Below, piece by piece: positions 49,008 through 59,319 of a DNA stretch of 59,319 nucleotides; position 1 is the first letter of the stretch, and each line of letters begins with the position of its first letter. A program made the position numbers and the translations under genes. This DNA comes from a bacterium (GTDB taxonomy: Bacteria > Elusimicrobiota > Elusimicrobia > Elusimicrobiales > UBA9959), in contig JAJZOZ010000003.1 in assembly GCA_021811405.1 (NCBI GenBank), forward strand, positions 1 through 59,319, in the 5' to 3' direction. Under the pieces are notes generated by a model. It was given only the letters and a program-made list of their open reading frames with translations, was not told where the DNA came from and did not search any database.

Positions 49008-49009
49008 TT

Positions 49010-49094
49010 CGGAGAGGGAGGGATTCGAACCCTCGAGGGTGTTACCCCTACAGGTTTTCGAGACCTGCTGTTTCAACCGCTCACACACCTCTCC
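49010..49094 (-). tRNA. tRNA-Ser(CGA), CCA not encoded
   Basis: Acceptor GGAGAGG/CCTCTCC, discriminator G, anticodon arm CAGGT-CTCGAAA-ACCTG, long variable arm, GGTTCGAATCC T-arm. Confidence 0.95.
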
Positions 49095-49181
49095 ACAATG
49101 CCGCAGCAGCGGCAAAACTAGATTATATAAAATCGGGAAGCCGGGCGGGCGTCCGGGCGGGAATATTGCTCGGAATTTGAA

Positions 49182-51876: not shown

Positions 51877-52652
51877 TGAAAAGCATACTCACCGCGCTTC
51901 AGGAAGGCAGGCTGATAGAGCTGCCCGAGACCGACAAGGAAAAGGCCCTGCGCTACCTGGCCACGATACTGGAGGCCATCCCCGACGTCAGCGCCAACGT
52001 GGACGTGGCCGAGGGCGTGCTGGAGCGCGAGAAGTCGGCCAACACCGGCATCGGCCGCGGCTGGGCCTGCCCGCACATACGCGTGGACGGGGACGGCGAG
52101 CTGTTCTCGGTGCTGGGCTGGAGCCCGGCCGGCATAGACTACGGCGCGCCCGATGGTAACAAGGTGCACCTGCTCGTGATGTACTACATCCCCGGCAACC
52201 AGCGGATGGCCTACCTGAAGGAGCTTTCCGGGCTGGCCAAGTCGATACAGGCGGGCCGGGGCATAGAGAACATAGAGAAAGCGGCCGCGCTCAACGACGT
52301 GCGCAACGAGCTGCTGAACTGGGTCTCCGCCTCCATAGACACCACGATGCCGCAGGCCAAGGCGCGCATGATCAAGCTGGAGGCGAAGCAGGCCCTGGCG
52401 GCCGAGCAGGCGCTGGCCGCCCCGCAGGCGCTGGAGCGGCTCGTCCCGCTCTACCTGCTGGCCGGCGCGGGGCCGAAGCACATAGCCCTGTCCCAGGACG
52501 CCGAGCTGGTGAAGCTGCTGGAGGCGGCCGAGATCGGGCCTATCGGGGAAAAGCAGGATTTCGAAGCGGGGTCCTACAAGGTGTTCGTCAGGTCGCGTTC
52601 CGCCTACAAGGCCGACCGGGTGCTGTACGACTGCATAGCGGTAAAACGCTGA
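51876..52652 (+). CDS. PTS EIIA type-2 (Ntr/Fru-like) domain protein with C-terminal extension
   Basis: VLEREKSANTGIGRGWACPHIR, GIDYGAPDG..VHL; TGATG coupling to mgtA. Confidence 0.85.
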   Translation: MKSILTALQEGRLIELPETDKEKALRYLATILEAIPDVSANVDVAEGVLEREKSANTGIGRGWACPHIRVDGDGELFSVLGWSPAGIDYGAPDGNKVHLLVMYYIPGNQRMAYLKELSGLAKSIQAGRGIENIEKAAALNDVRNELLNWVSASIDTTMPQAKARMIKLEAKQALAAEQALAAPQALERLVPLYLLAGAGPKHIALSQDAELVKLLEAAEIGPIGEKQDFEAGSYKVFVRSRSAYKADRVLYDCIAVKR

Positions 52653-52670
52653 GCCCGCCGCCGGGAAGCG

Positions 52671-52703
52671 AAAAAAGACAGCCCCGGGCTGTCTTTTTTC
52701 TTT
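52671..52703. terminator. Bidirectional terminator
   Basis: aaaaaagacagcc-ccg-ggctgtctttttt. Confidence 0.8.
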
Positions 52704-52797
52704 ATAAAACCGCGGAGTCTCAGGAATGAAGTTCGAGACTACTTCGCGCAACATCCCGAGGAATCATTATAAATACCGCTTTCGATCCGTTTTAGCG

Positions 52798-52967
52798 AAG
52801 GAGTCCCGCTCTTATCCGCGAGATGTCGTCGCAGGCGTGGCCACGAAGCGCGGCCCCGCACTGCTCCTTGCCGCGAGAAGCGGGGTCCGCAGGCTCGCCC
52901 ACACGCCGGCCCATTGGTGGGCCGGCTGCGGGCTCGCTCTGCTCCACCATAAGGTGTCCCGCTCTTA
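52798..52967. repeat. 17-bp near-perfect direct repeats flanking a GC-rich multi-hairpin
   Basis: aaggagtcccgctctta (52798-52814) vs aaggtgtcccgctctta (52951-52967). Confidence 0.7.
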
Positions 52968-53405
52968 AACTGCTTTATAATTATTCCCCGCGCGCACTGC
53001 AAAGAAAAGAGCTGAACCTATTATATTACAGATTCGCCCGCGCCGCCAATGGCTTCGGCTGAAGCCACTCGCGGCGCGGGCCTGTTCCTGTTAATGTCAA
53101 CTGACCTTATGCCGGTGGCCCCGATTTGATAAAACACCGCCCCGGCGTCCGCTTCGCGGCCGCCGCGGCGGTCTTTATGTAATTGTTTGTAGCCACCGGA
53201 AGAGGCGGAAACTGCAAAGAACAAGCGGTAGGCCCAGGCCGGCAGCGGCTGGCCGTTTGAGGGCCGCCGCCTCCGGCCTGGCCCGGCTTACAATGTTCCC
53301 ACCCATTTATGGTACAGCAAAATTACCCACCCGATTTGAGGGAGAAGACTATAGGCGCTTATAAAGTATGTGCTTTCATCACGACATGCCGTTGTCGGGA
53401 TGCTC

Positions 53406-53414
53406 TGCTATAAT
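53406..53414 (+). promoter_or_regulatory. Extended -10 promoter of the cyclase-like/HEPN cassette
   Basis: TGcTATAAT about 55 nt upstream of ATG 53469. Confidence 0.55.
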
Positions 53415-53468
53415 AAGCGTGTTGGGCAACAAAATACCTGCAAGCGTTTATCCTGGGGAAATACGAGT

Positions 53469-54128
53469 ATGGACTTCTCTTTCGCGCAATTCAAGAACAG
53501 GTGGGTGGCCTATTTCGACCTTCTTGGCTTTTCAAGCATGGCTTCTAGTAATTCTGATTTTGGACGCCAGTTGGTTCTTGATATATACGCTGAAGTAATC
53601 GAAAAGGTGAAAGATGTTTCCAAGGAAGCTGCTGGCCATTCCGCCCCTGTAATGCCAGTCTGGTTCTCGGATAGTTTCCTGATGTATACGCCAGGGGATA
53701 CTCCGCTGGAATACCGGGCAATAATATCTGCTTCGAAGCGGTTCATCGAAAAGCAGATCCGGGGCGGCATTCCCGCTTGCGGGATTATAGGTTTCGGCGA
53801 ATTGTTCGCTCATGCCGAGAAAAACGTTTTTATCGGGAAAGTCCTATGCGATGTTGTGCGCCTGGAACAGAACCTGCACTCCGTCGGATTATTTATAAGC
53901 GATGACGCGGTTAAAAAGGCAAGGTCCTATAACTTGCAGCCAACGCGGCACGGATTTCAGCCCATGGGGGAAAAGGGATTTGCTTATACGTTTTACGGAG
54001 GCCCGGCCAACTTCCGGAATCCTTGCCTTTCAAAGCTTGAGGAAATGCAGAGACTGGCCCCGCCAGCAGCCAAAGACAAATATGAGGGCGTGATAAAACA
54101 TGTCGAGAAATTTGCCCGCAAAATATGA
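53469..54128 (+). CDS. Class III nucleotide-cyclase-like (palm-fold) protein
   Basis: VAYFDLLGFS (first metal Asp), WFSDSFLMY (second Asp), GIPACGIIGFGEL, FIGKVLCDVVRLEQ aligned by eye to the cyclase core; ATG 53469 preferred. Confidence 0.65.
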   Translation: MDFSFAQFKNRWVAYFDLLGFSSMASSNSDFGRQLVLDIYAEVIEKVKDVSKEAAGHSAPVMPVWFSDSFLMYTPGDTPLEYRAIISASKRFIEKQIRGGIPACGIIGFGELFAHAEKNVFIGKVLCDVVRLEQNLHSVGLFISDDAVKKARSYNLQPTRHGFQPMGEKGFAYTFYGGPANFRNPCLSKLEEMQRLAPPAAKDKYEGVIKHVEKFARKI

Positions 54129-54829
54129 AACAGAAACTTCAGGACCACCCTATATTTACGGAAGCCTTCAAGGCAACACTTGATTTGTCCGAGGACACAC
54201 GGTTCCTACTACTGGCCGGGAAATCCACCTACCAAGGGAAAGAGGTTTTGTTTAAAACGCATGTATGGCTCGGGAAGTTCTGCGCGTTCATGGAGCAACT
54301 TAAGTATGCGGCAGGGATGCTTTCAAAGTATCGAGGAAGCGCCGCTTCCTCCGGCGCAACGCGGTATGACCATATCCAATACGCGATTGAAAACTTTTAT
54401 ATTCGCTATCCATCGGCGCTGGACAGGGCGCTCCGAGCCGTAAATGAGGCCTTCGGTCTTGGATTTAAACCGCGCAAGTGCCGGTACGATAATGTGACGA
54501 ATTCTCCCGGGGTTAAGGGAACTTCCGTGGCGGCGGCCCTCACGGTTATCCACGGCACGACCAGGAAGTACAAAAACGAACGCGACATTATCGCCCATTA
54601 CGGGAATTATGAGGATGATACTTTGCGGGCTATCGGGGCCTATTGTATCGCCAGGAAGATCGACCCGCAAAAATTCTCAAAATGGGATGTCCACAACAAA
54701 ACCATGGCCGATAGTTATGTTAAGGAAAAGAAACGCGAATTCTTCGGGGATATAGTGGTCCTGGAGAAGTTCCTGTACATCTTTTTTGATGCACTTTCTA
54801 TAAAAATATCTGGGAGTCAGAATAGCTGA
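54125..54829 (+). CDS. Cthe_2314-like HEPN domain protein (putative RNase)
   Basis: YAIENFYIRYPSALD...N..FGLG, RDIIAH (Rx4H); ATGA overlap with upstream gene. Confidence 0.72.
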   Translation: MKQKLQDHPIFTEAFKATLDLSEDTRFLLLAGKSTYQGKEVLFKTHVWLGKFCAFMEQLKYAAGMLSKYRGSAASSGATRYDHIQYAIENFYIRYPSALDRALRAVNEAFGLGFKPRKCRYDNVTNSPGVKGTSVAAALTVIHGTTRKYKNERDIIAHYGNYEDDTLRAIGAYCIARKIDPQKFSKWDVHNKTMADSYVKEKKREFFGDIVVLEKFLYIFFDALSIKISGSQNS

Positions 54830-55049
54830 TTTATGTGCTGATGTCTTAAAATGCGGATAGACTTCGCGGTCGCCGTCTCCGGCTTGGCCCGCTTTACAAC
54901 AGATTGTTGGTCTACCAAACGATTATTGTTATAGAATCAGATTGTACGGGGGCCCCATTCTTTCAGAACATTATCTTGGTCGAGGCTTCAAAAGCAGACG
55001 AGTCCCTAGACGGTTCCAGGCTTTAAAGAGACTGCACGGAGATTGATAA

Positions 55050-56141
55050 ATGACCAGAGAGACCGAGCTTCTTGAAGAGATCTATGCCGAGTTTATCAAT
55101 ACTGGACAATTCCCCAGGAGGGAATATTTCAGAAATTCACATCACCAGGACCTCGATATTTTAGACAGCCTAGAAACAAAAGGGACTTTCAATAACCGGG
55201 ATGGTCTATATGCAATACCCATAACTAAGCTTCCCGAGATTAAATATTGGGAATCCGAGAAAGTCCTACCGAATAGAATACTGCCTGTCCTGAAAGAGTT
55301 CCGTCTTGAGAACATGGAGAAAGACAGGACCGTCGGGGAAATCGAGCAGGCTCTGGTCGGCACGCCGGGAATAACTTCCAAAGATATTCAACGCGCTATC
55401 TATTATCTCCAGGAAGCCTGCTTCTTTGAAAGCTATCAAGGGGGACCGAATGCCGGTGGTTATAAGACTGTTCGCCCTAGGGAAGAAGTCCTGCGTTATT
55501 CAACTATTGATAAGCGTATTGAGTCGCTGAAAGGGCAAAGAAAGGCGGCTTCTCCGTTGGCATTCTTGGGGGTCCCTAAAATGATCCAGCCTAAGGGGCC
55601 TTCTCTTTGTGCTCCCAACGAGGCTTGGGCGGAAATCCAAAAAGAATATGACTGTAGCAAGGCTAAGTTCGCTCGCCAGATTAATTTTCTGCCGCGCTTC
55701 AAAAGAGAGGTCGTAATTCGCGATGTCGCACAGGCATTTAGTTGTTTAAAGGCCGGGTTTTATAAGCCAGCCGCTATATTGGCCGGCGGCGCTATAGAGG
55801 AACTGTTGCGGCTCTATTTGAAACACCACGCATTTCCGACCAAGAATAAAACTTTTGAAAACTATATCGATGACTGTGAGCAGCATAAGCTCTTACGGTC
55901 AGGAATCGCTCATCTGACCCACGCGGTCAGGAATTTCAGGAATTTCGCCCATTTGGCTAAAGAGATTTCCAAGAAGCGGTCGATTTCAAAATCAATTGCT
56001 ACTGGCGCAGTAAGCGCGGTCTTCACTATCGTAGGGAATTTTGAAAAGCCGCTCCCGGAGAAGAAGAAGGCGAAAACAATAAAGGGGTCTGGCAGGATAT
56101 TGCGGTTCAAGATCAAAAAGCACGGAGGGGGAAATGGTTAA
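55050..56141 (+). CDS. Two-domain protein with C-terminal DUF4145-like HEPN domain
   Basis: AFSCLKAGFYKPAAILAGGAIEELL and VRNFRNFAH motifs; unknown N-terminal domain. Confidence 0.62.
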   Translation: MTRETELLEEIYAEFINTGQFPRREYFRNSHHQDLDILDSLETKGTFNNRDGLYAIPITKLPEIKYWESEKVLPNRILPVLKEFRLENMEKDRTVGEIEQALVGTPGITSKDIQRAIYYLQEACFFESYQGGPNAGGYKTVRPREEVLRYSTIDKRIESLKGQRKAASPLAFLGVPKMIQPKGPSLCAPNEAWAEIQKEYDCSKAKFARQINFLPRFKREVVIRDVAQAFSCLKAGFYKPAAILAGGAIEELLRLYLKHHAFPTKNKTFENYIDDCEQHKLLRSGIAHLTHAVRNFRNFAHLAKEISKKRSISKSIATGAVSAVFTIVGNFEKPLPEKKKAKTIKGSGRILRFKIKKHGGGNG

Positions 56142-56427
56142 GGTAAATATCCAGCAGAAGGACGGACATGTCAGAGTCGAGGTCTTAATTGAGAGGGCCG
56201 CCAATGATTCAAAGTGGCATCGCCTTGAGGTCGCCACTAACGACGGCTTCAAATGGGATGCCCCGGTGAAGATCGATCTTCCGAATAGTGATAATTGTGG
56301 TGTTACGGACCTGGCCCCTGAATCGGAGCGATTGGTTGTGACATGGGATGGAGAAGTTGTTGCGAAAGAGAAGCTGACATTGTCAGACCGAAGTCGGATG
56401 ATTTCGGCTAAATATGACGTCCAGTGA
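56134..56427 (+). CDS. Hypothetical protein, 97 aa, beta-rich
   Basis: GGAGG RBS, overlaps upstream stop by 8 nt. Confidence 0.6.
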   Translation: MVKVNIQQKDGHVRVEVLIERAANDSKWHRLEVATNDGFKWDAPVKIDLPNSDNCGVTDLAPESERLVVTWDGEVVAKEKLTLSDRSRMISAKYDVQ

Positions 56428-56452
56428 TGGGCGTTGCTCTGAGTGAGTCTCT

Positions 56453-58321
56453 ATGGCAACAATAATCCCGGCTGAAGCATTAAATGCGGCAACGGGTGGA
56501 GAGAGAAAACTCTTGCGGAAACTTCATGCCGGGCTGCCGCCGGAATGTCTGCTTTGGCATGGAGTAGAACTGCCGGGGAGTTATCAGGCGGATGTCGTCT
56601 GTTATATCCCGGCGCGCGGGCTCATAATCTTCGAGGTGAAGGATTGGGGGCGAGACACGATCCTCACGTGCAATAAAGACGGCTGGGTGATCTGCGACGA
56701 GGGCAAGGATAAGGGAGTCAAATCCCCGTTAACTCAGGTCCGCAACTACTTTTATCGGCTCAAAGAACTATTCGAGAAGAAAAATCTGCTTTTGGCTGAA
56801 GGAGGCAGCTATAAAGGCAAGTTCAAGATCCCTATTGCTTATGCCGTGGTATTCCCAAACATAAGCCGCGCTGATCTGCCCGAAGGAATCGGGGATGTTC
56901 TGCCATACTCCCGCATACTTTCCAGGGAAGATCTGGATGCGCTCGGAGACTCCGTAAAAGGGCCGGAAGCGACGGCTTTCCTGGGCAAGTATTTCAGCGA
57001 GCACTTCTGGCCCAATGAAGCGCTGAATGAGAACGAACGCAATATCCTTATCTCGACGATCTACCCGGAAAAGAGCTATTCGCCCAAAAGCAAGAATGGC
57101 GCGGTGAATTATTTCCTTGATGGCCGTCAGGCTCAGTTGGTGGAGCGTCTGGAATCGGGGCACCATATCATCCGCGGCATCGCCGGCAGCGGCAAGTCAT
57201 TGGTGCTTTGTGCTAAAGCGCAGCTTCTGGCCAGAAGCAAACCGGATGCCAAGATCCTGCTGGTCTGCTTCAATACCAGTCTGAAAAGCCAGCTGGATTT
57301 TTATCTTCAGAGTTTCAACGGAGATAAATCTTCAAGCACTTCCGGAGTGATACATGTTTTCAACTTTCATAAGTTCATTGACTGGCAGGCCAAAAAAGCC
57401 GGGGACGAAGAGGCGTGCCAGAAACATTTGAATGATTCCTGGGAGCATGGCGATGACGACGGGCAAAGCGCCATGCTGGGGGAATATCTGCGGGGGTTGG
57501 CTCTCCGGCCGGATACAGTTAAATACGATGCGATCTTGATAGATGAAAGTCAGGACTTCCATTATTCCTGGCTGAAGGGGCTGCGGGCTTTTATCAAGCC
57601 GGAACCGCATTTACTTATCCTGGCCGAGGACTTTAACCAGAAAATATACCATCGGAAGTTCACTTACAAGGGCGCAGATATCAATGTCCAGGGCCGGGTC
57701 AGGAAACTTCCGATGATCTATCGCAGTACGAGAGAGATAATTGTTCCTGCCATGAGATATCTTCACGGAGAAAAATTCGAGGACAGCGCCAAACAGTATC
57801 TGACTATGGAGGATTGCGTTGCCAATAATTCCAGCGGTAATATGCCGGACCTGCGGCTTTTCCCTAATGATGTAGAAGTCTTCAAGTTCATCGTTGATGA
57901 TATCCGGGCGCAGGTCGAGAATGGCGCAGCCTTTTCGGATATCGGGGTGTTCCACCCTTTCCACAACGGTACTCAGCGGATCGCTGAATATCTGGAAAAG
58001 CATGGAATCCCGGTCTACTGGCTTGCCAAGGACAACCTTGCTAAGAAAAATTTCAGCTTGTCGCGGAATGCTGTCGTGGTAAGCACGATCCATTCGGCTA
58101 AAGGCTTGGAGTTTGACCATGTCTACTTCTCGGGCATTGAATGTTTCCCTTTGGAAAATCTCAAGCTTACCGAAAGAGAGAATGCCTCAATTGTCTATGT
58201 CGGCATGACAAGGGCAAAAAGGCGGGTCGTGCTGATTTCGACCAAAGAAAATCAGACTATTCTGAAGCTGAGGGCGGCCCTGGCTCAATGCGCTGACAAT
58301 TCGGGGGACATGGCCTTGTAG
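56453..58321 (+). CDS. NERD nuclease fused to SF1 (UvrD-like) helicase
   Basis: GERK, ADVV..IFEVKDW, SPLTQV (NERD); GIAGSGKS, IDESQDF, YRST, STIHSAKGLEFD, YVGMTRAK. Confidence 0.88.
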   Translation: MATIIPAEALNAATGGERKLLRKLHAGLPPECLLWHGVELPGSYQADVVCYIPARGLIIFEVKDWGRDTILTCNKDGWVICDEGKDKGVKSPLTQVRNYFYRLKELFEKKNLLLAEGGSYKGKFKIPIAYAVVFPNISRADLPEGIGDVLPYSRILSREDLDALGDSVKGPEATAFLGKYFSEHFWPNEALNENERNILISTIYPEKSYSPKSKNGAVNYFLDGRQAQLVERLESGHHIIRGIAGSGKSLVLCAKAQLLARSKPDAKILLVCFNTSLKSQLDFYLQSFNGDKSSSTSGVIHVFNFHKFIDWQAKKAGDEEACQKHLNDSWEHGDDDGQSAMLGEYLRGLALRPDTVKYDAILIDESQDFHYSWLKGLRAFIKPEPHLLILAEDFNQKIYHRKFTYKGADINVQGRVRKLPMIYRSTREIIVPAMRYLHGEKFEDSAKQYLTMEDCVANNSSGNMPDLRLFPNDVEVFKFIVDDIRAQVENGAAFSDIGVFHPFHNGTQRIAEYLEKHGIPVYWLAKDNLAKKNFSLSRNAVVVSTIHSAKGLEFDHVYFSGIECFPLENLKLTERENASIVYVGMTRAKRRVVLISTKENQTILKLRAALAQCADNSGDMAL

Positions 58322-58414
58322 CGTGATGGCTTTTTGAGTCCGAATGACTCACTAAATATAGCTTTGCCTGTATCGGGCCGGGCGATTATTGTAGAATAAT
58401 CCCAAGGTTAGGCT

Positions 58415-59113
58415 ATGGGCAACACGATTCTGATCGTTGAAGATGATACGCCACTACGTAAGTCGCTGGTGAAATATTTTTCAGTTTGTGGTTTTACGGT
58501 GTATTCCGCCGGCAGTTGCCCGGAGGCCGTAGAACTGGTTTTTCGGCACCTGCCAGATTGTTTCTTGCTCGATTACCACCTTGGCGACGAGACCGCCCTG
58601 CTTATCTGCCTCTCCGTGCGCGGCTGCACGCAGCTCCGTGAAGCCCCGATAGTGATATTGAGCGGCGATGAGCAGCAAGTCGCCGACTGCTATGATAGCT
58701 GCCAGGCTGATGCCTTCGTGTTGAAAGGACACGGGCACAAGGCGGCTTTGGCCGCGATACAGCGGCAGTTGCGCCGTGTGGGCAAGCCGTGCGAGCCACA
58801 ACCCTCCGACCTGGTCTTGGACCATAAAGGGCAGCGGGTAATCAGGAACGGGGCAACGCTGGCTAAACTTTCCCCGGAACAGTTCAAACTTTTCTCGTTT
58901 CTCTTCGAGAATCGGCCGCGCTGCGTTCCCGGCAGTGAAATTATTGCGCAGGTATTTACCGAACCTCCACGCGACCTGGCGGAAGCGCTTGCCGCTCTGG
59001 TGTACAGGCTGCGTCAGACGCTCGGCCATCCCTATGCCCGCAGGATAGCCCGCAAAAAAGGGCGCGGCTGGGCATATATACAGCCGCGGCAGTATACCAA
59101 AACGCCTGTTTAG
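58415..59113 (+). CDS. Orphan response regulator (REC + winged-helix)
   Basis: IVEDD, LLDYHL, ILSGD, FVLK, LSPEQFKLF, LVYRLRQTL, KGRGW. Confidence 0.82.
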   Translation: MGNTILIVEDDTPLRKSLVKYFSVCGFTVYSAGSCPEAVELVFRHLPDCFLLDYHLGDETALLICLSVRGCTQLREAPIVILSGDEQQVADCYDSCQADAFVLKGHGHKAALAAIQRQLRRVGKPCEPQPSDLVLDHKGQRVIRNGATLAKLSPEQFKLFSFLFENRPRCVPGSEIIAQVFTEPPRDLAEALAALVYRLRQTLGHPYARRIARKKGRGWAYIQPRQYTKTPV

Positions 59114-59319
59114 CGGATTTTGTGGCAATTTCCGCAACACGATTTTCCCCGACGTAAAACCCTCTCCAAAATGACGCACGCGCCATTGACAAAGTGGTAA
59201 CTCTCTGCCAAGATATATCCGGGCACGCGGGGACTTCACTGTGATTTGCATACTTCAGCGGCGGTGCGGCCTGGCCGTGGGGCGGCCATTTGTAACCGGT
59301 GAGGGAGCTGATCTGCGCG

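What the first reader, a model, noticed from the sequence alone, without database searches (positions are those of the whole stretch)
53469..54829. Class III cyclase-like enzyme + Cthe_2314-like HEPN RNase: candidate new defence or toxin-antitoxin system
Seen: a two-gene operon (ATGA overlap, own extended -10) in lower-GC DNA flanked by repeats. Gene 1 keeps both metal-binding Asp motifs (FDLLGF, FSDS) but has DVVRLE where canonical cyclases have NxAxRLE. Gene 2 has an intact Rx4H. Known: Pycsar pairs class III cyclases with cNMP-binding TM or TIR effectors, and HEPN-MNT pairs use a Pol-beta nucleotidyltransferase to AMPylate the HEPN. This pair fits neither, and I see no cNMP-binding domain. 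Inference: either nucleotide-signal activation of an RNase, or a palm-fold enzyme acting as a modifying antitoxin in abortive infection.
Basis: partly seen in the sequence, partly recalled or inferred. Interest (0 to 1): 0.75.

Follow-up and report, generated by a model that had tools for sequence, protein, structure and literature searches.

The report
Cyclase-fold enzyme paired with HEPN RNase
A small mobile pair of overlapping genes in an uncultured Elusimicrobia genome joins a probable RNA-cutting HEPN protein to an enzyme shaped like a nucleotide cyclase. The pair is real, rare and unnamed, and is probably a toxin with its regulator used in phage defence, but this is untested.

Summary
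Gene 1 (53469-54128) and gene 2 (54125-54829) overlap by ATGA and lie in a 5.6-kb low-GC island (52706-58320). That island was missing from 9 of 9 syntenic same-genus loci.

Gene 2 is a Pfam HEPN_Cthe2314 protein (E 8.6e-12) with an invariant Rx4H motif. Gene 1 matches no Pfam, PADLOC or NCBIfam model. Its AF2 model (pLDDT 86) is a class III cyclase catalytic domain (Z 16.3 to a guanylate cyclase). It belongs to a large unnamed family of ~230-aa proteins (7238 representatives at E<=1e-3) with both metal-binding Asp residues invariant.

The pair recurs with the same 4-nt overlap in three DNA loci. One of these (L016) shares only the cassette and a displaced 354-nt noncoding element with the window. 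Both genes are under purifying selection (dN/dS 0.10-0.15).

Most distant relatives of gene 1 have no HEPN neighbour. Two of them sit beside other HEPN families, and many lie among Abi, restriction-modification and toxin-antitoxin genes.

My best reading (0.4) is a toxin-antitoxin-like abortive-infection module in which the cyclase-fold enzyme holds a sensor-less HEPN RNase in check by nucleotide chemistry. Activation by a signal (Pycsar-like) is the main rival. I rate it an unnamed new variant of a known kind. The mechanism is untested, and the complex predictor was unavailable.

The parts
52706..58320 (.). Low-GC accessory island that carries the pair plus a separate three-gene module
   Evidence: L001 aligns to the window at 89% identity only over 52706-58320, and its left flank is non-homologous. 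In 9 of 9 syntenic same-genus loci homology is lost at ~52650-52878. GC profile.
52706..53405 (+). Conserved GC-rich noncoding leader: a dispersed repeat (~52720-52895) and three hairpins (52979-53332)
   Evidence: 93% identical to L001. Repeat copies on contigs C157, C2, C103 and C72. Hairpins. Part of it (52979-53332) is also in L016, 3.5 kb upstream of the pair there. No Rfam family reached threshold.
53406..53414 (+). Extended -10-like promoter element TGcTATAAT
   Evidence: Read and conserved in L001. Consensus match only, not shown to function.
53469..54128 (+). Gene 1: 219-aa class III cyclase-fold protein of an unnamed family (metal Asp residues D17 and D68)
54125..54128 (+). ATGA stop/start overlap (translational coupling)
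   Evidence: Kept in 3 of 3 DNA loci: window, L001, L016.
54125..54829 (+). Gene 2: 234-aa HEPN_Cthe2314 protein with R153-x4-H158, followed by Y159 and Y162
   Evidence: Pfam PF18730, E 8.6e-12, 45.8 bits against a 27.1-bit cut-off. The motif is invariant in 5 of 5 homologues. The AF2 model is all-alpha. HEPN chains appear among the top fold matches, but weakly.

Best explanation
The two genes form one mobile toxin-with-regulator module of the abortive-infection or toxin-antitoxin kind. Gene 2 is a small, sensor-less HEPN endoribonuclease (the toxin or effector). Gene 1 is made first and translationally coupled to it. It is a class III cyclase-fold, two-metal nucleotidyl-transfer enzyme that keeps the RNase off in uninfected cells.

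I think it most likely does this through nucleotide chemistry. One route is covalent nucleotidylylation of the HEPN near its Rx4H site, analogous to MntA acting on HepT. The other is constant production of an inhibitory nucleotide, analogous to Panoptes. Loss or blockage of gene 1 activity during infection would then free the RNase.

Shown here: the two folds, the intact catalytic motifs, co-inheritance as a cassette, purifying selection, island location, and the absence of a known sensor domain. Inferred: RNase activity, toxicity, the sign of regulation, and the chemistry.
For: - **One unit.** The ATGA overlap and gene order are kept in window, L001 and L016, with dS of ~1.4-1.7 between L016 and the other two loci. 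dN/dS is 0.10-0.15 for both genes, and dS is similar for the two genes. L016 shares the cassette (53374-54814) and, displaced about 3.5 kb upstream in L016, the noncoding element 52979-53332. Its flanking genes are different. At protein level the partners share contigs in two more cases: P0003/P0016 and P0006/P0017.
- **Effector.** Gene 2 matches PF18730 over its cut-off, and R153/H158 are invariant in 5 of 5 homologues.
- **No sensor.** Pfam finds only the HEPN domain in 234 aa. The model is all-alpha with no beta-rich domain.
- **Enzyme.** The gene 1 model has pLDDT 86.4. Its best fold matches are class III cyclases: Z 16.3, rmsd 2.7 over 164 residues to 3et6, and Foldseek E 7e-6. D17, D68, G123 and Y205 are invariant in 114 family members.
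- **Antitoxin-first order with coupling** matches the HepT/MntA layout. In that system a Tyr next to the Rx4H site is poly-AMPylated (PMC7641770, passages read). Here Y159 and Y162 flank H158 and are invariant.
- **Defence setting.** The low-GC island is missing from 9 of 9 syntenic congeners and sits beside a NERD-UvrD gene that matches a PADLOC model.
- **Family neighbours.** Relatives of gene 1 lie next to AbiH, AbiEi/AbiEii-like, Type ISP, WYL, BrnT/CopG and IS200 genes. Two lie next to other HEPN families (L024 AbiV, L086 RNDFAH protein) and one next to an MBL RNase-like gene (L005).
- **Precedent.** The Panoptes paper notes that palm-domain mCpol genes are sometimes coupled or fused to HEPN RNases (PMC12657218, section 12).
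Against: - I have no evidence of binding or modification. The complex predictor was unavailable.
- The HepT signature is RX4HXY. Here the Tyr residues are at +1 and +4 from the His, not +2.
- As far as I recall, no class III cyclase-fold enzyme is known to modify a protein.
- The window clade replaced the family's near-invariant R104 (100 of 114) with Cys, and also lost Y130, E134, Q136 and W138. By my recollection of cyclase structures R104 may be the triphosphate-binding Arg. That could mean weakened catalysis, which would favour a plain binding antitoxin.
- Cthe_2314 HEPN genes were reported with no conserved partner (PMC3710099 Table 1), so such HEPNs do not obviously need an antitoxin.
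- Only 2 of about 58 distant loci of the gene 1 family showed a HEPN-family neighbour. Several members sit between kdsB and pyrG, which is a housekeeping setting.
Confidence: 0.4

Rival explanations
1. Positive signalling, like Pycsar, CBASS or type III CRISPR. Gene 1 senses infection and makes a cyclic or linear nucleotide that binds and activates the HEPN RNase.
For: The fold is that of cyclases, including the Pycsar cyclases (7r65 Z 12.7, 8jsz Z 13.2, 8jsf Z 12.0). The metal Asp pair is invariant. The layout is a two-gene cassette in a defence island. mCpol-HEPN operons are noted in print, with the sign of regulation left open. A 2026 preprint title and abstract (seen only in the listing) reports a HEPN defence protein, ApeA, activated by deoxydinucleotides.
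Against: The HEPN protein has no CARF, SAVED, cNMP-binding or other known sensor domain. No PADLOC Pycsar or CBASS model matches either protein. At the motif position where I recall the cyclase transition-state Asn and Arg, the family has I/V and E/K/R. Gene 1 has no extra sensing domain in its 219 aa.
Confidence: 0.2
2. Type II-like toxin-antitoxin pair. Gene 1 neutralises the HEPN simply by binding it, and its cyclase-like chemistry is vestigial or used for something else.
For: Antitoxin-first coupled gene order. The window clade lost several family-conserved residues: R104C, Y130V, E134Q, Q136L, W138S.
Against: D17 and D68 remain invariant, including in the HEPN-linked clade, and dN/dS is low. 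Binding could not be tested.
Confidence: 0.15
3. Two independent single-gene defence or accessory genes that merely travel together, with no joint mechanism.
For: Both families mostly occur without the other. Cthe_2314 context was 'None detected' in 2013, and most gene 1 relatives have no HEPN neighbour.
Against: The 4-nt overlap is kept at dS ~1.4. The cassette is shared with L016, where the flanking genes differ (apart from a displaced 354-nt noncoding element). In 5 of 5 cases where it could be checked, the close HEPN homologue shares a contig with a gene 1 homologue.
Confidence: 0.1

Closest known systems
HepT/MntA (HEPN/MNT) type VII toxin-antitoxin system
   Same: It is a two-gene module with the nucleotidyltransferase gene first and a small HEPN RNase with Rx4H second. 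The antitoxin there acts by transferring AMP to a Tyr beside the active site (PMC7641770, passages read). HepT chains are the best, though weak, Foldseek matches of the gene 2 model (6m6u_H, probability 0.96, E 0.17).
   Different: The upstream enzyme here has the class III cyclase palm fold, not the Pol-beta MNT fold with GSX10DXD. The HEPN belongs to the Cthe_2314 family and has RX4HY..Y rather than RX4HXY. No modification has been shown.
Pycsar (PycC cyclase plus cNMP-sensing TM or TIR effector)
   Same: It is a two-gene defence cassette built around a class III cyclase-fold enzyme. Pycsar cyclase structures align at Z 12-13.
   Different: No PADLOC Pycsar model matches. Adenylyl and guanylyl cyclases match better (Z 14-16) than the Pycsar cyclases do. 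The partner is a HEPN without a cNMP-binding domain.
Panoptes and other mCpol operons, including the mCpol-HEPN operons and fusions noted in that paper
   Same: A minimal palm-domain nucleotide synthase is encoded next to a toxic effector. The signal can be inhibitory. HEPN partners of mCpol are mentioned (PMC12657218 abstract and section 12).
   Different: Gene 1 groups structurally with class III cyclases (Z up to 16.3) rather than with GGDEF or Cas10-type palms (Z <= 10.3), and no Pfam family matched it at E<=1. The effector is not S-2TM-beta, CARF or SAVED.
Type III CRISPR Cas10 with Csm6/Csx1 (CARF-HEPN)
   Same: A palm-domain nucleotide synthase controls a HEPN RNase.
   Different: There is no CARF domain, no CRISPR array and no Cas genes in the island. 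Cmr2 aligns only at Z 9.2.
Class III adenylyl/guanylyl cyclases (Pfam Guanylate_cyc)
   Same: Same fold and the two metal-binding Asp residues in matching motifs. Automatic names for sister clusters read 'Guanylate cyclase domain-containing protein'.
   Different: There is no Pfam PF00211 match even at E<=1. The Asn/Arg and base-specifying positions, as I recall them, are not conserved. The family has its own C-terminal helical extension with an invariant K204-Y205.

Membership tests
HEPN superfamily, Cthe_2314 family (PF18730) | Match to the family HMM over the curated cut-off | tested here: met
   45.8 bits against a 27.1-bit cut-off, E 8.6e-12. The L016 homologue scores E 1.5e-10.
HEPN superfamily, Cthe_2314 family (PF18730) | Rx4-6H catalytic motif with a polar residue after the Arg | tested here: met
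   R153-D-x-I-A-H158 is invariant in 5 of 5 sequences. Motif definition taken from PMC3710099.
HEPN superfamily, Cthe_2314 family (PF18730) | All-alpha HEPN fold | tested here: inconclusive
   The model is all-alpha, but its pLDDT is 70.9 and only one of five models was good. HEPN chains appear among the top hits (4nqf Z 8.9, 2hsb Z 8.1, 7ae2 Z 7.3), mixed with generic helical bundles at the same Z.
Class III nucleotidyl cyclase catalytic domain | Cyclase-homology palm fold | tested here: met
   Z 16.3, rmsd 2.7, 164 residues aligned to 3et6_B, and 25 cyclase entries lead the list. Foldseek gave 110 matches at E<=0.001, led by CyaC.
Class III nucleotidyl cyclase catalytic domain | Two metal-binding Asp residues | tested here: met
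   D17 and D68 are invariant in 114 of 114 sequences. Their equivalence to the cyclase Asp residues rests on motif likeness as I recall it, not on a residue-level structural alignment.
Class III nucleotidyl cyclase catalytic domain | Transition-state Asn/Arg pair and base-specifying residues (recalled from cyclase literature) | tested here: not met
   Column 127 is I48/V47 (window Cys). Column 131 is E40/K21/R14 (window Arg). The Pfam Guanylate_cyc HMM gives no match at E<=1.
Pycsar | PycC-type cyclase recognised by PADLOC models | tested here: not met
   0 PADLOC families matched P0001 at E<=1. Among 114 family members there were only two single weak hits, to unrelated models.
Pycsar | Effector with a cNMP-binding domain fused to TM or TIR | tested here: not met
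   Gene 2 has only the HEPN match.
HepT/MntA type VII toxin-antitoxin | MNT (Pol-beta fold) antitoxin with GSX10DXD | tested here: not met
   Gene 1 has the cyclase palm fold. No NTP_transf-type Pfam match.
HepT/MntA type VII toxin-antitoxin | RX4HXY motif in the HEPN | tested here: not met
   The sequence is R-D-I-I-A-H-Y-G-N-Y, with Tyr at +1 and +4. Motif.
HepT/MntA type VII toxin-antitoxin | Covalent nucleotidylylation of the toxin | not testable with these tools
   This needs mass spectrometry of the co-expressed proteins.
Panoptes / mCpol systems | mCpol (minimal Cas10-type) palm domain | tested here: inconclusive
   No Pfam family matched at E<=1. GGDEF and Cas10-type palms score Z <= 10.3, against 12-16 for class III cyclases. 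No mCpol structure appeared in the rows shown, which does not exclude it.
Panoptes / mCpol systems | S-2TM-beta, CARF-2TM or SAVED-2TM effector | tested here: not met
   Gene 2 is a soluble all-alpha HEPN.

The most novel reading that the evidence does not exclude
Gene 1 would be the first class III cyclase-fold enzyme that acts as an enzymatic antitoxin. It would either nucleotidylylate a sensor-less HEPN RNase or feed it an inhibitory nucleotide. More broadly, the unnamed ~230-aa family (7238 representative clusters, invariant D..D..G..KY) would be a widespread defence-island enzyme that has been recruited repeatedly to control different RNases: Cthe_2314, AbiV and MtlR/DUF4145-like HEPNs, and an MBL beta-CASP protein.
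Probability: 0.25. Interest if true: 0.8.

Novelty: new variant of a known kind. Interest (0 to 1): 0.58.

Why it matters
HEPN RNases are among the commonest suicide effectors in prokaryotic immunity, and how the small, sensor-less ones are controlled is largely unknown. Cyclase-fold enzymes are known in defence only as makers of activating signals (Pycsar).

A cyclase-fold protein that restrains or switches a bare HEPN would add a new control logic. It would also give a first functional handle on a very large family of cyclase-like proteins that no Pfam, NCBIfam or PADLOC model covers. If the family does sit in defence islands as the sampled loci suggest, it is a sizeable blind spot in current defence-system catalogues.

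Tried and rejected
- Complex prediction of gene 1 with gene 2 was unavailable, so binding is untested.
I redid it with the 13-sequence alignment.
- The treekit tree build was killed. I replaced it with mafft plus FastTree. I did not inspect support values, so I use the tree only qualitatively.

**Searches that found nothing useful**
- Viral contigs: no relative of either protein.
- Plasmids: nothing for gene 2, and two weak partial hits for gene 1.
- Fused forms of 435-2000 aa: none found, which is weak evidence.
- PDB by sequence: nothing for either protein or for the family profile.
- Rfam on 52400-59319: only sub-threshold hits.
- No direct repeats bracket the island.

**Candidate HEPN neighbours rejected**
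- The unknown downstream neighbours in L056 and L041 are not like the HEPN (hhalign probability 0.1), and neither is the one in L003.
- The L037 neighbour had only HEPN_Swt1 at E 0.2. It has a TM segment and no Rx4H, so I rejected it.

**Literature**
- Three searches found no paper that pairs a class III cyclase-like protein with a HEPN: 'HEPN' with 'class III nucleotidyl cyclase' (0 papers); 'HEPN' with 'guanylate cyclase' and 'abortive infection' (0 papers); and 'Pycsar/HEPN/effector/cyclase' (15 papers, none on such a pair judging by title and abstract start).
- Burroughs et al. 2015 (NAR), which I recall surveying nucleotide-centric conflict systems, is not held and may mention related pairs.
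- DefenseFinder models and the supplements of the cited papers were not consulted.

**Earlier scan notes**
- They mention a 'HEPN/cyclase pair' and a cyclase-fold pair in other genomes. I could not compare sequences with them.
Full report
**What is there.**

Gene 1 runs from 53469 to 54128 (+, 219 aa, P0001). Gene 2 runs from 54125 to 54829 (+, 234 aa, P0002). They share the four bases ATGA. A TGcTATAAT element lies at 53406-53414 (read). It is conserved in the sister locus L001. The -35-dependent promoter scan did not list it.

GC falls from 0.58-0.70 to 0.44-0.53 across ~53200-58400. The window is the whole contig C220 of an 88%-complete, 2.83-Mb assembly. Earlier notes of this scan call the organism an uncultured Elusimicrobia bacterium. 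The nearest public locus, L001, is titled an Elusimicrobiaceae MAG.

**The island.**

L001 aligns to the window at 89% identity over exactly 52706-58320. Its left flank is unrelated. I fetched nine same-genus loci that share the upstream mgtA and PTS-EIIA genes. All nine lose homology at ~52650-52717 (one at 52878), and none carries any of the island.

In the 401 genomes sampled from the window's phylum, PF18730 scores over its cut-off only in the window's own genome (1 of 401). That sample included 20 same-genus genomes, none with a match. So the pair lies in a recently acquired 5.6-kb accessory island.

The island also holds a second module (55050-58321), described below. Its 760-nt leader is GC-rich and noncoding. 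The first ~190 nt of the leader is a dispersed repeat found on four other contigs. The leader also contains three conserved hairpins. I found no direct repeats at the island ends.

**Gene 2.**

Pfam gives HEPN_Cthe2314 at E 8.6e-12 (45.8 bits against a 27.1-bit cut-off) over residues 74-166. PADLOC and NCBIfam give nothing meaningful.

Only four 90%-identity clusters, the query's own included, were found among 5.8 billion proteins. Together with the L016 copy, that gives five sequences in which R153-D-x-I-A-H158-Y159-G-N-Y162 is invariant.

The AF2 model is all-alpha but only moderately confident (pLDDT 70.9). HepT and other HEPN chains are among its best fold matches, but at scores that helical bundles reach by chance. 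The HEPN call therefore rests on the HMM and the motif. There is no room for a known nucleotide-sensor domain, and no sign of one.

**Gene 1.**

No Pfam, PADLOC, NCBIfam or PDB sequence match was found. An AF2 model built on 13 homologues has pLDDT 86.4.

Foldseek gives 110 PDB matches at E<=0.001, led by class III adenylyl and guanylyl cyclases. An aligner that does not depend on Foldseek gives:
- Z 16.3 (rmsd 2.7, 164 residues) to a guanylate cyclase, with cyclases filling the first 25 rows
- Z 12-13 to the Pycsar cyclases
- Z <= 10.3 to GGDEF domains
- Z 9.2 to Cmr2 (all)

A profile search of 1.84 billion representatives finds 7238 proteins at E<=1e-3 and 246 at E<=1e-30, nearly all 210-270 aa.

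In a 114-member alignment D17, D68, G123 and Y205 are invariant. W12, L19, G20, F66, S67, F70, F92, P102, G105, G140 and K204 are nearly so. None of the 114 members hits a Pfam, PADLOC or NCBIfam family in any consistent way. Automatic cluster names read 'Guanylate cyclase domain-containing protein'.

The motifs line up with the cyclase motifs as I recall them. By that alignment, the positions of the cyclase transition-state Asn and Arg are I/V and E/K/R in this family. I therefore file it as cyclase-fold, not as a proven cyclase.

The window's clade also departs from its own family: R104 to C (R in 100 of 114), Y130 to V, E134 to Q, Q136 to L, W138 to S.

**Is the pair a unit?**

Yes, with good confidence.
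- The cassette recurs in L001, in the same island.
- It also recurs in L016, a metagenome contig that shares only 53374-54814 (73% identity) and a 354-nt piece of the leader placed 3.5 kb away. L016 has quite different neighbours: NUDIX, GrpB, adenosine deaminase and DUF952 upstream, and three unknown genes downstream.
- The ATGA junction is kept in all three loci. Between window and L016, dS is 1.42 for gene 1 and 1.48 for gene 2, and dN/dS is 0.105 and 0.138.
- Two further partner pairs share short contigs at protein level.

In every case that could be checked (5 of 5), a close homologue of this HEPN has a gene 1 homologue on the same contig.

**The wider family.**

I looked at about 58 distant loci:
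- 9 from species genomes
- 22 non-duplicate loci from metagenomes
- 17 from the window's phylum, where 17 of 401 genomes match at E<=1e-8
- 3 extra paralogues in one genome
- 7 from a second phylum, where 8 of 401 genomes match at E<=1e-20

Many contigs are short, so not every neighbour was visible. I scanned the ORFs of 70-80 aa or more that flank the matches.

Most loci show no HEPN neighbour. Two do:
- L024 has an AbiV-family HEPN (E 2e-22) 100 nt upstream.
- L086 has a 183-aa protein 37 nt downstream with an RNDFAH motif and sub-threshold matches to two HEPN-clan models, MtlR at 6.7e-5 and DUF4145 at 1.1e-3.

L005 encodes a cyclase-like protein 62% identical to that of L024. It is followed by an MBL/beta-CASP RNase-like gene.

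On a FastTree tree (support values not inspected), the three HEPN-linked lineages sit far apart.

Other neighbours include AbiH, AbiEi plus an AbiEii-like NTase, a DNA methylase, a Type ISP restriction enzyme, a WYL regulator, YgjP/T5orf172, a terminase, BrnT/CopG, IS200 and HNH repeats.

Against a pure defence picture, four loci (L009, L027, L034, L039) place the gene directly downstream of kdsB, with pyrG next in the two where the downstream side was scanned (L009, L027). Others sit beside argG or sua5.

I read the family as sporadic and often island-borne, with repeated but not obligate links to RNases.

**Mechanism.**

A 234-aa HEPN with an intact active site and no sensor needs some control. 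The gene in front of it is co-translated with it, encodes a two-metal nucleotidyl-transfer fold with both Asp residues kept, and is under purifying selection.

The nearest worked example is HepT/MntA, where the upstream nucleotidyltransferase poly-AMPylates the Tyr of RX4HXY. Here invariant Tyr residues flank the His, but not at the +2 position.

A second precedent is Panoptes, where a minimal palm enzyme makes a nucleotide that keeps the effector off. That paper notes that mCpol genes are sometimes coupled or fused to HEPN RNases, and leaves the sign of regulation open.

I therefore favour negative, nucleotide-dependent control (0.4) over the alternatives:
- infection-triggered activation (0.2)
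- a plain binding antitoxin (0.15)
- mere co-travel (0.1)

None of these is shown. The complex predictor was unavailable.

**Novelty.**

The 2013 HEPN survey lists 'None detected' for Cthe_2314 gene context. PADLOC 2.0 has no model for either protein. My literature searches found no paper on a class III cyclase-like protein paired with a HEPN. Burroughs et al. 2015 is not held, and I saw neither DefenseFinder models nor paper supplements.

The logic (palm enzyme plus HEPN; nucleotidyltransferase plus HEPN toxin) is known. The cyclase-fold family and this pairing are not named. Hence my rating of 'new variant of a known kind'.

Noticed in passing
window 55050-58321: A second, separable module sits in the same island. 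It has three genes. The first encodes a 363-aa protein with a C-terminal DUF4145 match (a HEPN-clan family; Pfam E 1.1e-5). The second, a 97-aa ORF with no match, overlaps the first by 8 nt. The third is a 622-aa NERD + UvrD helicase that matches PADLOC model PDLC01087 'NERD+UvrD' at E 6.9e-77. The module is present in L001 but not next to the pair in L016.
   Followed up: partly
window 52979-53332 (also L001:5207-5560 and L016:12-365): A conserved GC-rich noncoding element with three long hairpins. In L016 the inner stem of the first hairpin is replaced by a different self-complementary sequence. In L016 the element lies 3.5 kb upstream of the pair, with four other genes in between. No Rfam family matched. 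It could be an island-end or recombination element, or a structured RNA.
   Followed up: partly
window 52706-52895: A dispersed repeat of ~100-175 nt has copies (74-95% identity) near the ends of contigs C157, C2, C103 and C72 of the same genome. It also occurs downstream of the EIIA gene in two same-genus loci, L065 and L070.
   Followed up: partly
L009, L027, L034, L039: In several Planctomycetota/Sedimentisphaerales-like loci a member of the cyclase-like family sits directly downstream of kdsB (CMP-KDO synthetase), with pyrG (CTP synthase) next in the two loci where the downstream side was scanned (L009, L027). This is a conserved housekeeping placement, quite unlike the island setting.
   Followed up: no
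L024:3341-4669 and L005:45-2098: Two cyclase-like proteins that are 62% identical have different RNase-type neighbours. L024 has an AbiV HEPN upstream. L005 has an MBL/beta-CASP (RMMBL) protein downstream.
   Followed up: partly
L086:447-1829: A divergent cyclase-like gene is followed after 37 nt by a 183-aa HEPN-like protein (RNDFAH motif; Pfam MtlR 6.7e-5, DUF4145 1.1e-3). The gene order is the same as in the window.
   Followed up: partly
G415 (genome of L007): L078-L081: One Planctomycetota MAG carries four paralogues of the cyclase-like family on four contigs. One of them (L080) is followed by a BrnT/CopG toxin-antitoxin pair.
   Followed up: no
window 49009-49095; L066, L072, L073: The tRNA-Ser(CGA) upstream of mgtA in the window has look-alike stretches (72-78% identity) directly downstream of the EIIA gene in three same-genus genomes. 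That is the position where the island sits in the window, so this spot may be a variable, tRNA-associated hotspot.
   Followed up: no
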